DNA of 64,000 nt, from NCBI RefSeq assembly GCF_002113885.1, contig NW_018407887.1:1-64000 (forward strand), in the 5' to 3' direction. The stretch is from Mizuhopecten yessoensis (Eukaryota). A program made the position numbers. Below are positions 6,001 to 18,000 of this stretch, piece by piece. Positions within the stretch are counted from its first letter, which is position 1; each line of letters starts with the position of its first letter.

Positions 6001-9000
6001 CAACTCAGTTGGTGCATAACCTAACCGTATTGAAGAAATGCAGTCGAAATCCAATACAACCAGAATTTCTTCTATCATTTATGTAGTTTACTGTCTTTTA
6101 ACTCGATGTGGCATGTAGTGACTAGCCGTATCGTGTGGTGTCAATTGATTATGGCTTTGTTGTAAGGTGATTAAATATCTTAAAACTGTTAGCATTGATT
6201 AAAATAAATCCATATATTTTATAGAGGAATACTTTATTTTCTTAAGCATTAACTAATTACACCAATGAAATGTTAAAAAACAGAAAGAGAAAAGAAATGT
6301 AATAATTTAGGAAAGAAATGACTAAAAGAGTTCTATAGAAAAAACTTCTTTATTTGACATTCATCTATTTTCAGTTGCATGCTAAAAATTGATTTTTTTT
6401 TATGCAGAACATTGTATCTTTACAACAGATACGGGTTTTTTACAATGCAAAATAAAATACAGTCTTGTAAATATTGTTTTATTTCTTTTTTATTTGAAAT
6501 CTGCCACCGAAAATACGACAAAAATGTATAAACATAAATTACAGAATTTTAAATTAACGTTGACCGAAAAAGAAATGGTTGTTGCCATTTAATGGTGAAG
6601 AATCACTTTGAGCCATGTCCATTTCACCAATCAGATGTCCGACGCAAGTACCATAAACCTGATTTTTCTGGCCAAAGAGGGGGAAGCTCTGGTCCTGTCT
6701 GACCTGGACGAAAACTCTCTCCCCTTTTCCGACGAAGACAATGACAGAGTTACCTGCAGAGGTATGGCTGCTGTAACCGGCCAGAGAAACAAGGAGCTCT
6801 GTATTTTTAATCAGTTCCAGCCACATCGCGTGATCAGTATTAGAATCGTAGGCATGAAAATCAAATTTGTAGATTCCTGATTTGGGAGCAGTAAACACTC
6901 CAGTGTTTCTGTCGTATCCACCTCCAAGGTTGGTAAAAATCTTGTCATATCTAACAGTATCACCGGAGTTCCCTGTCACTGTGCGTGTAAGCGCTGCAGC
7001 GAATGCAACCACGTGTTTGTCGCCATGGTGATCGTTATATGTCTGAGATGCAGTTGTTGAGGGACCTAAGAAAGACAAAAAGTAGAATTAGTTATTATAT
7101 AAATAATAGCTTTCACGTTTTAGTGGCATTTCCATCGTAAGATGAAACTTGTTTATGCTCATAAGTGAATCATTATTTGTAAATTAGAATACTAAATTTA
7201 ACATGTACAATTTAAACTTGAATATAATTTAGTGAAATCTGACATTACCTTGTGACTGGTGATGTAAAATAACTACTTAAAAACGATAAAAGGAAGTATC
7301 TATTAAGAGGGATACAACCAAAATTCAAATATATGATTAAACACTCAGGAAATGACTAAATGTGTGGTCTCTCCAGACACACTTAACGTAAGTGTATGAA
7401 TACACTTGAGCTGATATATCGGTAACAACAACTTCCTTATCGCCAATTTGCTTAAGGGAAACGCATTTTAAGAAAAAGGGAATTTATAAATAAGAATGGG
7501 GAAAAAGACTGGGGTAACAAGAAACCAACGAAGATAGAGCATCGGGATACAAGAAGTCACATAAGCAATTGTTCCTCCCCAGGCCCCTCCCTAATGAACG
7601 ATAGAAATTGGTGGAACAGAGAACAAGATTGAGGCAAACTGAAGTCACACATCAGAGTATAAGTTCCCGTATCGCGAGTATTTTACGGACATAATGTGCT
7701 ATTAGTGTAAAACAAGTCACTTTGTAGCATGTATATCCCTCGTTTTCAGGACATGTATGAAATGTAGTCTATTGTATCCTCAAGAATTAGCTCAGTCTGA
7801 AAAAAAACAGACAGAAAGACGTTCCCCTTTTATTTGACGTTCCATTCGACTCAATTTACGTTACATATGCGCATTTATTTGTGTCTCGTTTTACCTTCTT
7901 TCACAAGTGAAAAAAAAATTACATACTTTTTATCCAAATTGAGTGATTCGGTTTTTGTGCTGCCAAATCAATTTATATTCATGACAACAGAGACTATTTA
8001 TCCGACAGTGTAAAAACCTGAAGCCCAGGGTACGAATTGTAATCTAGCGACGCTGAATAATATTTAAATAAAATTACAGCAAGTTTTAGTTTTCTTTTCA
8101 GAAAGGACTAATTGAGCTGATTGCTGTTGTCGTCAGATGCCTCAATTTTATGTCAGACTATCAGATTTATTTAACTAAATATCTCGTTTTTACTTAGGTC
8201 ATTGGCAAATATGCTGTTTCTATGATGTTTTGTAAAGCAAGTGTTATACATAAATAGCTAAACTTGAATTAAAAATATAATGATAATGTAAATGTACTAC
8301 ATTGTGGAAAATGTCGTGTATCTTCTGTGAGATGTTGTAATGGGAGGGCTAGCATAGGTTTTGTATGGTGGCAGATGTGTGTCAGTTTGTTAGTCTGTAG
8401 CGAAATAACAATAAGTATGGCCGCCAAATAACAATACGTATGGCCGTCCAAATAACAATAAGTACGGCCGCCAAATAACAATAAGTATGGTCGCCAAATA
8501 ACAATAAGTATGGCCGCCAAATAACAACAAGTATGGCAGTCAAATAAGAAAGGGCCGATATAGCTATGCTTGCTGTCCAATTTGATACATCCAATCTCAA
8601 ATATAAATCATGAACTTTGACATATGGATCCATATTGACGTTCTAGAAAGTCTCCAGTTTCTCTTTTTGTGTTTTCCATCTAACAAATAATAAAATTGAG
8701 ACGACTTACACGATAGTGCTCTCCTCTCATTGACAGTTTGACCGCAATATACATACCCCTGCTCCTGTCACTATTGGTTTTGTTCACGAACATTAAAATG
8801 GAACTTTATTACTTTTATTCTAATCTAATGGGAATTTATTTTTGAGCAACATTGAATAAAACAGATGATTGATTTTTTTTAATGAATGGTTTTTTATGCT
8901 TCTTTAAAATGTTTTATATATTAATTTTGTAATGACTAACATTTTTGTATCAACATTACAGAAGAACACGAATAGTTCCTTGGTTTAAATAAATAAGTGA

Positions 9001-15000: not shown

Positions 15001-18000
15001 AGTGTTCCTAATTTGCATAATAACATATTACAAAATTATGAAAATATGAATGTGATTGAACCTCTTATTTATTTCAGAGTGTTATATTGGTTCTTACAAA
15101 CTTATATCCATCAACAAGATCATATATTTCAGATATAATTCATCTATTTAGTAAGAAATAAACCATCTATTTAGTAAAGTATTTAGAGTAAAGGGGTTCA
15201 TTGAAAACACAAGTACTCAGAAACGAAATGCATTTAAACGTTTTGTCCTTTTGGTTTTATTAACGAGAAGAATTATCAGGGTGTATATTCTCATAATCAA
15301 CTTCGCATTGTTTAATAAGGTACGCAATAGCTAATCAATTCAATTTTTTTAAGTCATATGATTGTTATGGCCATATCATCTGTTGATTGCATATCATACG
15401 TAAAACAAGTTATATAGCCATCAAATGAACAAATGAAAAAATCAATATAATAAAGTTCTTATTGTGAAAGAAGATCAGTTAAACATTCAACCATAAGAAT
15501 GTTAAAAAAATATCCGAATGTTTCTGTACTTTATGGAAAACGTTGACCGTCGATCATTACATAATGCTAAACTTGCTGGAAAGCATTTTCTTCCTTTTAA
15601 GGATAACAAACAAACAATGTAGTGCAACGAAATTAAATGTATGAATTTGATGTATCCATATAAAATTGTGTTAATAGATGAGTAGCTGAAAAGTCGGCTA
15701 TAAAGACGTCTGACGTGTAACTGATCTGATGTAAGAGATATTACAATTCTTACACACGAAATGCTGGAAAAATTTAATCAGAGACAGATATTTATGATGA
15801 TAATATTATTTTGCAACACTTTGCAACTGGTAAAATATGAAAAATTACAAACTACCTACCTTGCTGCGATCTGCACAGTGTTGTTACTTGGAGCTGCTGG
15901 AAAGCTCGGGATGACGACTCTGGGACAAGACGGACATTTAAATACAAACGCATCGATAATTTTTTGTTAAGAGTGGGTGGGACAATTTCAAATTCCACAT
16001 ATTCTTTGACTACGGCAGGTTGAGACGTGACCGAAGAATGTAGGGGTAATTTTGACACATTATGCAGAATATGCAAAGTCTCCTCAGCTTGATTTGTACC
16101 TATTTGGATGCGTGCCGATATTAATCAAACTGATAATGTTTGCTTCTAATTTCACCATAACTGTAAATTTATCCTGGGGATAAGTTAAATACTAGATATG
16201 TGTAAAATTCCTTAATAATTTGGTAATTAAAATGTGTTAAAATTATATTTTCATATTGTATAAAGTTGAAATGTTAGAAACTCCCCGGGCTATAGACATA
16301 AAGCCTGTTGACACCGGTAACTAGACGACGGTCACCCGTAGCAAACGTTTTAGGTAAGGTGTAAGATATCAGACTGGAAAGACCTTTTTCAAGAGTTGTC
16401 TCGTGCCCAACTGACAAAAGTATTAAGTCTTTAAATTAATTTGATAACTAATACGTGATAGGTCCAGTGATTTTATAAGAATGCTGTCGAAATTGCAAAA
16501 TCAAATTTTGGAAACCATAGTCCACCTAACTCCACCTGTTTACCTGACAGTCTTACGGTTATGTTATGACAGATGTTTATTGTCACAATACTGAGGAGGG
16601 AATAAGCCAAGGGATTATTACAATTTACCAACGCCTTCTCCAACATGTACATTGTTATTCGGTATCATACCATAGTTACTGATTGAAAAGGATCGATATT
16701 TCAATATCAATATCAAACCTATTCTTAACAATACCTAATTGATATTCATATAATCATTATATAACGAATTTCGTTTTCTATCAAGATAAAGTATGTTTAT
16801 GTAAAAGTAAGTATATGTCTGGTTTCGAACCTTTGTTATTATGTAAAATTTGTCATCGATATAATATGACAAATATTGTTTGTTAATTATCTTTTGAATC
16901 AGTGAGTAAATTGAACATGAAATAATGAAATGGCATTACTTTGCCATAGCACTAATTGGTTCGACGAAATACTCATAATATTGTATACAAATTAAAACAG
17001 AACAAAACATAATATTCAATTTATAGTTTGATGATTTCTCATTTTTCAATAGATTTTACATATTTATTGATGCATTGCAAAGCAAATGAGGTGTCCATTT
17101 ATTACTTCTCAATGGTTTCGTTCCGTTTTATTTTTTATATGAAATTTATTTATTTATATATATTTTTTTTATTTTTCTAACATTACTTACTTTTTACTAT
17201 CTTATAAATGTATTTATATCATTTTATTCTAATTGTGCTTTTTTTCTTATAATAAGTATGGTTGATCCAGAAGACGAAATTGTTCCGTACACTTATATTT
17301 CTTATATGCTATTCAGATATGGTCAAATCCTTACTCGTTACGGTCATCCCATTGCTGTGGTTTATTTAGATTGGGATAGGAGTGTTCACACTGAATGTCC
17401 TACCTCTTCAAAAGATTGCATAATTTTATTATCATCTTAATGTGGTGACTGATAAAATTTAACATTGGCCGCATGCACTGATATGTTATAAATGAAGGTG
17501 TTTGTGTATTTAACATCAACAGAAAGCTACTTATAAATTCACGAGTTGGGATAATTTTACAGGTAGTCGACTATGTTTCTAAATAAATAAATCTTAGTTC
17601 GGGTAATACAAAGAACAAGTAAATGCCAAGAGCTGTGTAGTTTTATTGCTGATTGGCATGTGTACGTATAGCCCAACAGTCATAAATAGCATACGTGTCA
17701 ATCACACACTGTGACAACACATTACAAGTTGTGTTTTGTACGTTAACATTTAATAAGATTAGACTTTATAAACACTCGAGTTGAATAATTAGTTTGACAA
17801 TTTGTTTTTGCGTTCTGAAGATAAGACCTGACATTATCCCCTTTAATACAAGGCAGCTAGTGTGCAAATACAAAACAAACGCCATCACATTTGATTCAGC
17901 TGAAAAAATCTGACATAACTGACCATGTTACACAAACCCTGATTTAACAGAAAAAAATATATAATCAGTTGACATATCAAGGAAAGTGAAGAAAAGGCCA

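What the first reader, a model, noticed from the sequence alone, without database searches (positions are those of the whole stretch)
6554..15944. One signal-peptide exon, two interchangeable gC1q terminal exons (possible alternative-last-exon diversification)
Seen: two paralogous, intact, single-exon gC1q units (10320-10789 and 6554-7065). Each starts at a phase-1 acceptor and has its own stop and poly(A) signals; the shared tail is GEMD.xQSDS. Only one phase-1 leader exon (14653-14719) and one TATA/first exon lie upstream, and I found no convincing signal-peptide exon between 7066 and 10320. Inference: one promoter and leader could be spliced to either recognition domain, giving two secreted lectin-like proteins from one gene. 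The alternative is that unit A is an orphan exon duplicate.
Basis: partly seen in the sequence, partly recalled or inferred. Interest (0 to 1): 0.75.

Follow-up and report, generated by a model that had tools for sequence, protein, structure and literature searches.

The report
One scallop C1q gene, two heads
A scallop immune-lectin gene seems to have one signal-peptide exon and two alternative final exons, each encoding a complete C1q recognition domain; a related scallop's public annotation already models this as two isoforms, so it is a neat but modest finding.

Summary
On the minus strand there are two intact single-exon gC1q units. Unit B is 10789-10320 and unit A is 7065-6554. Both match Pfam C1q over the full profile and are 63% identical to each other. 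Each starts at a phase-1 AG acceptor and has its own TAA stop. There is one phase-1 signal-peptide exon (14719-14653). A mechanical scan found no leader-like exon between the units.

The window is scallop, most likely Mizuhopecten yessoensis. The leader plus unit B equals a database protein at 100% identity. That protein is 90% identical to CfC1qDC, an experimentally characterised pattern-recognition receptor and opsonin.

The key new evidence comes from Pecten maximus. Its RefSeq carries 'complement C1q-like protein 3' isoforms X1 (A-type) and X2 (B-type), which share an identical 23-residue leader. Both map colinearly onto the window. A- and B-type form separate old clades, each 87% conserved between the two genera.

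So the alternative-last-exon reading is supported by orthology, not by transcripts from this animal. There are three caveats:
- An M. yessoensis model of a 97% A-type copy uses a different first exon without a signal peptide.
- Unit A here carries two private changes at conserved positions.
- The upstream TATA and first exon are unverified.

This is a new member of a known kind, of moderate interest.

The parts
15937..15944 (-). Unverified.
   Evidence: Read directly. No tool here tests eukaryotic promoters.
15860..15914 (-). Putative non-coding first exon. The 5' end is a guess, about 30 nt after the TATA-like box. The 3' end is at a donor-like AAG|GTAGGT. Unverified.
   Evidence: Sequence read. 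The long N-terminal extension of the Ylistrum model P0008 gave no significant match here (E 19).
14653..14737 (-). Leader exon. The acceptor AG is at 14739-14738 and the ATG at 14719. It has 22 codons plus 1 base (phase 1), and the donor GT is at 14652-14651. It encodes a typical signal peptide.
   Evidence: hydrophobic core 3.20, donor 6 of 7. It is 100% identical to residues 1-23 of P0003 and 83-87% identical to the leaders of three other scallop proteins. It is the only such hit in the window.
10320..10789 (-). Unit B, the proximal terminal exon. It has a phase-1 acceptor, a complete gC1q domain, a C-terminal tail and a TAA stop at 10322-10320.
   Evidence: It is 100% identical over 100% of its length to the M. 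yessoensis protein P0003 and 90% identical to CfC1qDC (P0004).
10070..10319 (-). Likely 3' UTR of unit B, with AATAAA at 10174 and 10075.
   Evidence: The hexamers are near chance expectation in this A+T-rich DNA.
7066..10069 (-). Spacer between the units. It would be intronic in the leader-to-A transcript. It has no leader-like exon and no similarity to the leader or promoter region. It holds a 23-nt tandem repeat at 8403-8547.
6554..7065 (-). Unit A, the distal terminal exon. It has a phase-1 acceptor with a strong pyrimidine tract, a 17-residue linker, a complete gC1q domain, a tail and a TAA stop at 6556-6554.
   Evidence: It is 87% identical to Pecten maximus isoform X1 and 97% identical to M. 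yessoensis P0001. The modelled gC1q jelly roll has pLDDT 80.7 and matches C1QL3 and Caprin-2 C1q domains with TM 0.88-0.90.
6350..6553 (-). Likely 3' UTR of unit A, with AATAAA at 6494, 6483 and 6354.

Best explanation
This is one secreted C1q-domain lectin gene of a scallop, most likely Mizuhopecten yessoensis. It is the orthologue of the pattern-recognition receptor CfC1qDC, and it has two alternative last exons.

Proposed mechanism:
- Transcription starts upstream of the leader exon (14737-14653).
- That exon supplies the ATG, a signal peptide and the first base of a glycine codon.
- Its single donor is then joined to one of two acceptors.
- The first choice is the proximal acceptor at 10789 (unit B), followed by cleavage and polyadenylation near 10170-10070.
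- The second choice applies when that weaker acceptor and its poly(A) sites are passed over. The donor is then joined to the distal acceptor at 7065 (unit A), followed by polyadenylation near 6490-6350.
- Either way the product is a signal peptide plus one complete globular C1q head with no collagen stalk. The two heads differ at 37% of positions.

What is shown: the exon anatomy, the phase compatibility, the uniqueness of the leader, the identity of the leader-plus-B product with a known protein, the age and conservation of both head types, and the existence of both leader-plus-head proteins in the Pecten maximus annotation.

What is inferred: that both junctions are used in this animal, that B is the major form, that the choice rests on competition between a weak proximal and a strong distal acceptor together with poly(A) site use, and that the two heads recognise different ligands.
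For: (1) Anatomy. Both units are intact, start in phase 1, lack an upstream in-frame ATG and end in their own stop. The leader ends in phase 1.

(2) Only one leader. 0 of 35 phase-1 candidates between the units have a hydrophobic core of 2.0 or more, and the maximum is 1.86. Of 1145 candidates in the whole window, only 2 pass the strict filter: this leader and the leader of the neighbouring minus-strand C1q gene. The third C1q gene's leader scores 3.53. DNA similarity between the A and B regions is confined to the coding part of the exons, at 67% over 230 nt, so there is no second copy of the leader or promoter.

(3) Orthologous isoforms. P0002 (Pecten maximus isoform X1) and P0005 (isoform X2) have 23 of 23 identical N-terminal residues followed by an A-type or a B-type head. 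Both are reported from a contig of the same length, 32,483,354 bp. P0002 maps to the window as residues 1-23 at 14719-14651 and residues 23-190 at 7066-6563. P0005 maps as residues 1-23 at the same leader and residues 23-177 at 10790-10326. The heads split long ago: synonymous sites are saturated, with 88 of 138 third positions differing. The leader itself differs at 4 of 23 residues between the two genera. An identical leader on both Pecten forms is therefore best explained by one shared exon.

(4) Both heads are maintained. The A-type clade has support 100/100 and the B-type clade 89/88. A is 86.9% and B is 87.1% identical between the genera. A-versus-B differences by codon position are 38, 26 and 88.

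(5) The proximal acceptor has 11 of 20 pyrimidines and the distal one 17 of 20. I recall this weak-proximal, strong-distal layout as one that permits both choices; no call tested it.

(6) Function of the B form. P0004 fits the residue numbering given for CfC1qDC (His35, Arg46, Lys93). According to the abstract and passages of PMC3419688, CfC1qDC binds LPS, peptidoglycan, beta-glucan and polyI:C and enhances phagocytosis.
Against: - I could examine no transcript evidence from this species.
- The M. yessoensis protein P0001 is 97% identical to unit A and lies on a 51,898-bp contig. It is modelled with a different 25-residue N-terminus that has no hydrophobic core. That N-terminus is not found in the window (best E 6.8). 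At least one annotation therefore treats an A-type exon as a gene of its own.
- No database protein is identical to unit A of this window: 2 hits among 33 candidates and 3 distant fish hits among 637. Here it seems to be unannotated.
- Only B-type forms have been cloned as cDNA. CfC1qDC and AiC1qDC-1 are named with GenBank numbers in PMC3419688. That these are cDNA records is my reading.
- Unit A in this window has two private substitutions at conserved positions. One is Cys where 13 of 14 aligned relatives have Phe and one has Tyr (codon 6646-6644). The other is Pro where 12 of 14 have Ser or Thr (codon 6682-6680). This could mean relaxed constraint on this copy.
- That NCBI only names isoforms when transcripts support them is recalled, not checked.
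- Poly(A) hexamers occur at about chance frequency.
Confidence: 0.68

Rival explanations
1. Unit A is the last exon of a separate gene. That gene has its own promoter and its own first coding exon, either in the 3.25-kb spacer or elsewhere, and the tandem pair are two ordinary two-exon C1qDC genes.
For: Tandem duplication of whole C1qDC genes is described as the usual mode of expansion in bivalves (passages of PMC6835236). The M. yessoensis model P0001 gives an A-type exon a first exon of its own. The review PMC10672478 lists some characterised C1qDC proteins without a predicted signal peptide.
Against: - No phase-1 ATG exon with a signal-like core exists in 7066-10319: 0 of 35, maximum 1.86, against 3.0-3.5 for the three real leaders.
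- The N-terminus of P0001 has no match in the window and no hydrophobic core, so it looks like an ab initio guess.
- The spacer has no similarity to the leader or promoter region.
- Pecten X1 carries the same leader as X2.
Confidence: 0.13
2. Unit A in this genome is an unexpressed or decaying exon copy. It would be a relic of a former gene or isoform that is no longer used in M. yessoensis, whatever happens in Pecten.
For: Two private non-conservative changes lie at conserved positions, Phe to Cys and Ser/Thr to Pro. The near-copy P0001 ends early, right after the SDSS motif. No identical annotated protein exists. No A-type protein came from a source other than genome models.
Against: The frame is open across all 169 codons, with a full-length Pfam match and a confident fold. 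The acceptor and its pyrimidine tract are intact. It is 87% identical to the Pecten orthologue, the same as unit B. Two changes are too few to show decay.
Confidence: 0.12
3. The Pecten isoform X1 is an annotation artefact, for example a model built from read-through or chimeric reads. The two heads would then not be regularly alternative anywhere.
For: I saw only names and sequences of the Pecten models, not their supporting reads.
Against: The model uses exactly the phase-1 junction predicted independently from the window. A head conserved at 87% between genera must be expressed through some leader, and none other is visible here.
Confidence: 0.07

Closest known systems
Pecten maximus 'complement C1q-like protein 3' isoforms X1 and X2 (NCBI models; P0002 and P0005 here)
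   Same: They share an identical 23-residue leader, followed by either an A-type or a B-type single gC1q head. They are 87% identical to units A and B. Both map colinearly onto the window's leader plus one unit.
   Different: They come from another genus. I saw only the protein models and their names, not the gene structure or the read support. In the M. yessoensis records I saw, only the B form is modelled from this leader.
CfC1qDC (Chlamys/Azumapecten farreri) and AiC1qDC-1 (Argopecten irradians), characterised scallop sghC1q lectins
   Same: They are 90% and 86% identical to unit B, with the same leader and the same length of 178 aa. CfC1qDC binds several microbial patterns and acts as an opsonin (abstract of PMC3419688). 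AiC1qDC-1 agglutinates a yeast (passage).
   Different: Both were described as single cDNAs. The passages and the review that I searched mention no second head, isoform or exon structure. Unit A shares only 60-63% identity with them.
Alternative last exons of secreted-product genes, such as calcitonin/CGRP (recalled from textbooks, not checked here)
   Same: Shared 5' exons include the signal peptide. There are two alternative 3' coding exons, each with its own stop and poly(A) site. The proximal one must be skipped to reach the distal one.
   Different: Here the two alternatives are paralogous copies of one complete domain, so the switch swaps like for like rather than producing unrelated peptides.
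Tandem whole-gene duplication of bivalve C1qDC genes (PMC6835236)
   Same: The family is the same, the arrangement is tandem and same-strand, and the basic architecture is signal-peptide exon plus domain exon.
   Different: In that description each copy keeps both exons and its own intron. Here the second copy has no leader of its own and apparently borrows the first one's.
Dscam-type mutually exclusive exon arrays (named as an invertebrate immune diversity mechanism in a passage of PMC4346834)
   Same: Duplicated exons encode alternative versions of one recognition domain, and splicing chooses between them.
   Different: This locus has two choices, not dozens, and they are terminal exons with their own poly(A) sites rather than internal cassettes. 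I found no docking/selector-like RNA pairing.

Membership tests
gC1q domain (Pfam PF00386) | Full-length match to the C1q profile above the curated cut-off | tested here: met
   Unit A scores 68.8 bits and unit B 81.7 bits against a cut-off of 23.7. Both cover profile positions 1-127 of 127.
gC1q domain (Pfam PF00386) | Ten-strand jelly-roll fold like solved gC1q heads | tested here: met
   The unit A model has mean pLDDT 80.7 and pTM 0.75, with 12 strands called. The best PDB matches are C1QL3, Caprin-2 C1q and C1QL1, with E 6.5e-12 to 3e-11 and target TM 0.88-0.90. Unit B was not modelled.
gC1q domain (Pfam PF00386) | Conserved core aromatic and glycine positions | tested here: inconclusive
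   Unit B has the majority residue at the 8 invariant columns of alignment A1 and at the Phe column. Unit A has a Cys in that Phe column, where 13 of the 14 other rows have Phe and one has Tyr. The 8 columns that are invariant across all 15 rows are kept in A.
sghC1q class (secreted, signal peptide plus one globular head, no collagen stalk) | N-terminal signal peptide directly followed by a single gC1q domain | tested here: met
   This holds for the B form. P0003 equals the leader plus unit B. The hydrophobic core scores 3.20. No signal-peptide predictor was available. For the A form it depends on the untested leader-to-A splice.
Alternative-last-exon gene | One upstream donor and two downstream terminal exons with acceptors in the same phase, each with its own stop | tested here: met
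   The donor at 14652 is phase 1. The acceptors at 10789 and 7065 are both phase 1. The stops are at 10322-10320 and 6556-6554.
Alternative-last-exon gene | A separate functional poly(A) site behind each terminal exon | tested here: inconclusive
   AATAAA lies 60, 71 and 200 nt after the A stop and 146 and 245 nt after the B stop. About one per 700 nt is expected by chance at this base composition (my arithmetic).
Alternative-last-exon gene | Transcripts showing both junctions from the same first exons | not testable with these tools
   No transcript data for scallops can be reached here. The only proxy is the Pecten maximus X1/X2 protein pair with an identical leader.
Orthologue of CfC1qDC (pattern-recognition receptor / opsonin) | High identity over the full length and grouping with CfC1qDC in a tree | tested here: met
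   Unit B is 90% identical to P0004 and groups with it inside the B-type clade. P0004 fits the His35, Arg46 and Lys93 numbering of the paper.
Orthologue of CfC1qDC (pattern-recognition receptor / opsonin) | Binding of LPS, peptidoglycan, glucan and polyI:C, and enhancement of phagocytosis | not testable with these tools
   These are bench assays. They are known only for the C. farreri protein (abstract of PMC3419688).

The most novel reading that the evidence does not exclude
Scallops keep an old, conserved two-way switch that puts either of two diverged C1q heads on one signal peptide from one promoter. Both chains would be made in the same cells, and C1q heads normally assemble as trimers (recalled). 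The two isoforms could therefore co-assemble into mixed trimers, giving up to four receptor species with different binding surfaces from a single gene, with the ratio tuned by splice-site and poly(A)-site choice during infection or development. If the same exon-level duplication recurs in the hundreds of bivalve C1qDC genes, splicing would be an overlooked second layer of lectin diversity on top of gene duplication.
Probability: 0.12. Interest if true: 0.6.

Novelty: new member of a known kind. Interest (0 to 1): 0.4.

Why it matters
Bivalve C1q-domain lectins are a textbook case of innate-immune diversification by massive tandem gene duplication. A locus where the duplicated piece is only the recognition-domain exon, and where splicing chooses the head, adds a second and cheaper route to diversity.

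It also concerns a protein whose B form is already experimentally characterised in a sister species. Earlier expression and knock-down work on CfC1qDC-like genes may therefore have measured only one of two products.

The idea is directly testable with existing scallop RNA-seq or a simple RT-PCR. The finding is limited in reach. There are two forms only, the mechanism is well known in general, and public annotation of Pecten maximus already shows it. I found no paper that discusses it. Full-text searches for 'C1q domain' + scallop + 'alternative splicing', C1q + 'alternative last exon' + mollusc and C1qDC + 'alternative splicing' gave nothing relevant in their listings; of those papers I opened only PMC4346834. 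The 2023 review PMC10672478 contains no occurrence of 'splic', 'isoform' or 'exon'.

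Tried and rejected
1. Leader or promoter copy between the units. blastn of 5000-10319 against 10320-17000 gave 3 matches in all. Two lie inside the coding exons. The third is a 15-nt match with E 0.10. Nothing useful came of it.

2. dN/dS of A against B. dN is 0.284, but synonymous sites are saturated, and all three methods failed or returned no dS. No scallop DNA from other species can be reached, so no orthologue dN/dS was possible.

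3. Are A/B differences concentrated in loops? They are not: 30 of 78 strand positions and 21 of 60 other positions differ (Fisher p 0.72). There are 18 columns fixed and different between 3 A-type and 6 B-type rows. Twelve are in strands, and many are conservative swaps such as V/I or L/I.

4. Docking/selector-like RNA pairing that could loop out unit B. An inverted repeat was listed with arms at 7263-7294 and 14490-14521, 32 nt long and 72% complementary. The duplex energy between the first 300 nt after the leader donor and the last 300 nt before the A acceptor is unremarkable. 62 of 78 background windows and 58 of 200 shuffles are as low or lower. Rejected.

5. Mapping the odd N-terminus of P0001 onto the window gave only chance-level hits (best E 6.8).

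6. Fused or longer forms of unit A. The search returned 3 hits among 637 candidates, all fish proteins at 36-37% identity.

7. Rfam found 0 families in the whole window. ARAGORN found 0 tRNAs in 5500-16500. The ORFs at 8269-8607 and 13973-14359 have no Pfam family.

8. Complex prediction on the unit A head with the unit B head gave no verdict: score 0.33 against a mark of 0.34. It is reported here only and counts neither for nor against binding.

9. The paper search was badly framed (any 2 of 5 terms) and returned unrelated papers. Searches gave background only.

10. Not checked:
Tables of C1qDC gene models in PMC6835236 or in scallop genome papers might list isoforms.

11. No contig here was taken for human. 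The window is scallop.

12. The spliced models were searched exon by exon. The window's leader was never joined to unit A or B for any search, fold or tree. Full-length comparisons used only database proteins as returned.

Full report
WHAT IS THERE. The window is A+T-rich (30-40% G+C). It contains N only at 629 and 740-1111, outside the finding. On the minus strand, stop-to-stop frames at 6554..7087 and 10320..10850 both match Pfam C1q over the whole profile (1-127 of 127), with E 6.5e-19 and 6.8e-23.

Reading the DNA shows AG acceptors at 7067-7066 and 10791-10790. The exons therefore start at 7065 (unit A) and 10789 (unit B), each at the second base of a GGT codon, which is phase 1. Each ends in TAA. 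Neither frame has an in-frame ATG before the domain, so neither can be translated into a whole domain without an upstream coding exon. The leader is at 14719-14653. It has 22 codons plus one base, the donor is CAG|GTAAAT, and it encodes a hydrophobic signal-like peptide.

IS THERE A SECOND LEADER? I enumerated every ATG-to-GT exon of 12-45 codons ending in phase 1 and scored the best 9-residue hydrophobic stretch.
- Between the units (7066-10319), 0 of 35 candidates reach 2.0. The best is 1.86. In a relaxed list over all phases (67 candidates; core at least 1.2 and donor at least 4 of 7) no core exceeded 1.47.
- Over the whole window, 2 of 1145 candidates pass a stricter filter (core at least 2.5, donor at least 5 of 7). 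These are this leader and 24475-24409, the leader of the neighbouring minus-strand C1q gene.
- The plus-strand C1q gene's leader (26235-26289) scores 3.53 with a weaker donor.
- The scan therefore recognises the leaders of all three C1q genes and finds nothing between A and B.
- Leader peptides from four scallop proteins hit only 14719-14651 (E 3e-12 to 4e-9). The next best hit has E 0.11.
- DNA similarity between the A side and the B side is limited to the coding parts of the two exons.

WHOSE GENE IS IT? Each exon was searched separately; the joined model was never submitted.
- Unit B is 100% identical over its full length to a 178-residue Mizuhopecten yessoensis protein (P0003), whose first 23 residues equal the leader exon.
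- It is 90% identical to P0004 from Azumapecten (Chlamys) farreri. P0004 fits the His35, Arg46 and Lys93 numbering used for CfC1qDC in PMC3419688.
- That paper's abstract reports binding of LPS, peptidoglycan, beta-glucan and polyI:C, opsonic enhancement of phagocytosis, and induction by these patterns.
- Unit B is also 86% identical to AiC1qDC-1 of Argopecten irradians.

THE DECISIVE COMPARISON. Unit A found two proteins among 33 candidates.
- The first is Pecten maximus 'complement C1q-like protein 3 isoform X1' (P0002, 192 aa, 87% identical). In the unit B search, 'isoform X2' of the same name (P0005, 177 aa, 87% identical) appeared, from a contig of the same length.
- Their first 23 residues are identical, and after them come an A-type and a B-type head.
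- On the window, P0002 aligns as residues 1-23 to the leader and 23-190 to unit A. P0005 aligns as 1-23 to the leader and 23-177 to unit B. These are exactly the junctions predicted from the sequence alone.
- The heads are old paralogues, with third codon positions differing at 88 of 138 codons and dS not computable. The leader differs at 4 of 23 residues between the genera. An identical leader on both Pecten forms therefore points to a shared exon rather than two genes.
- As far as I recall, NCBI names extra isoforms only with transcript support.

AGE AND CONSTRAINT. The tree has 14 rows. The window exons were used alone and the database proteins whole. P0010 and P0013 were left out as fragments.
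- The A-type rows (window A, P0001, Pecten X1) form a clade with support 100/100.
- The seven B-type rows from five genera form another with support 89/88.
- An unnamed 158-residue protein (P0009), which shares the A-type linker, joins the A side weakly at 81/83.
- The stem of the three-row A-type clade is long (0.51, against 0.13 for B), but within the clades the two genera are about equally distant. This matches the 86.9% and 87.1% identities.
- Differences between A and B by codon position are 38, 26 and 88. Both heads have therefore been kept by selection since before these genera split.

STRUCTURE. With the 15-row alignment, unit A models as a gC1q jelly roll (pLDDT 80.7, pTM 0.75). The first 5 and last 14 residues are disordered. 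The best solved matches are C1QL3, Caprin-2 and C1QL1 heads, with target TM 0.88-0.90. A/B differences are spread evenly over strands and loops.

POINTS AGAINST.
- I saw no transcript from this species.
- The other protein found with unit A is P0001, an M. yessoensis model that is 97% identical and sits on a 51.9-kb contig. It starts with 25 residues that are not signal-like and are absent from the window, and it ends early. Someone's pipeline therefore treated an A-type exon as its own gene, though the first exon looks like a guess.
- Unit A of this window has no identical database protein.
- It carries two private changes at conserved positions, Cys for Phe and Pro for Ser/Thr.
- The TATA-like box and the first exon near 15944-15860 are only consensus-like strings.
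- Poly(A) hexamers are at chance density (my arithmetic).

HOW IT MOST LIKELY WORKS. One promoter and one leader donor serve two alternative terminal exons. The proximal acceptor (B) has a poor pyrimidine tract (11 of 20) and the distal one (A) a strong tract (17 of 20). This fits competition between splicing and polyadenylation at B on the one hand and read-through to A on the other. B is probably the major form, since it is the only one cloned so far. That weighting, and any difference in ligand specificity, are inferences. I tested for long-range RNA pairing that might loop out B and found none above background. A heteromer prediction gave no verdict (see Tried and rejected).

COMPARISON AND NOVELTY. 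The domain family, the secreted single-head class and the CfC1qDC orthology are ordinary. The arrangement is a standard alternative-last-exon gene. Its particular feature is that the alternatives are paralogous whole recognition domains.

The literature I could search describes C1qDC expansion by whole-gene tandem duplication (PMC6835236, passages). It does not mention alternative heads. The Pecten maximus annotation already encodes the arrangement. I therefore rate it a new member of a known kind, of moderate interest.

HOUSEKEEPING. The window is scallop, not human. The closed collections and supplementary files were not consulted.

Noticed in passing
window 22019-24475 (-) and 26235-30936 (+): Two more C1q-domain genes lie head to head, with their phase-1 leader exons (24475-24409 and 26235-26289) only about 1.76 kb apart. 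Unlike the focal gene, their gC1q domain is split over several exons. Fragments are at 23678-23514 and 22138-22019 on the minus strand, and at 26741-26926, 28250-28408 and 30796-30936 on the plus strand. The cluster therefore mixes two gene architectures.
   Followed up: partly
window 6646-6644 and 6682-6680 (-): Unit A has Cys where 13 of 14 aligned relatives have Phe and one has Tyr. It has Pro where 12 of 14 have Ser or Thr. The 97% identical M. yessoensis protein P0001 and the Pecten orthologue have the usual residues. These could be an allele, an assembly error or relaxed constraint.
   Followed up: partly
C-terminal ends of units B and A (10337-10323; 6571-6557) and of their relatives: The B-type tails end in Gly-Arg, Gly-Lys or Gly in 7 of the 8 B-type or related rows of the alignment that reach the end. 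This resembles a C-terminal amidation signal (my recollection of that signal). The A-type tails end differently: Gly-Gln-Arg here and Gly-Pro-His in Pecten.
   Followed up: no
window 8403-8547: A 23-nt tandem repeat of 6.3 copies with 91% matches sits in the spacer between the two units. It creates a spurious repetitive ORF (8269-8642, minus strand).
   Followed up: partly
window 530-4831 (+): A large open frame on the opposite strand converges on the 3' end of unit A. It has a repeated motif of about 30 residues and is interrupted by the N run at 740-1111. A later 197-residue frame (4238-4831) has a sub-threshold NHL-repeat match (18.1 bits against a cut-off of 20). Together they bound the C1q gene on its downstream side.
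   Followed up: partly
window 38001-42000 and 56327-56934: A stretch with strong G-over-C skew (0.34-0.35) overlaps long repetitive frames at 40023-41170. A second array at 56.3-56.9 kb has a period of about 26 nt, judged from repeated tblastn offsets. Both look like satellite or minisatellite DNA.
   Followed up: no
window about 14400-14480 (-) and about 9250-9310 (-): Short stretches in the two introns look tRNA-derived by eye, with a GGTTCGA-like T-arm motif. They could be SINE fragments. ARAGORN and Rfam report nothing there.
   Followed up: partly
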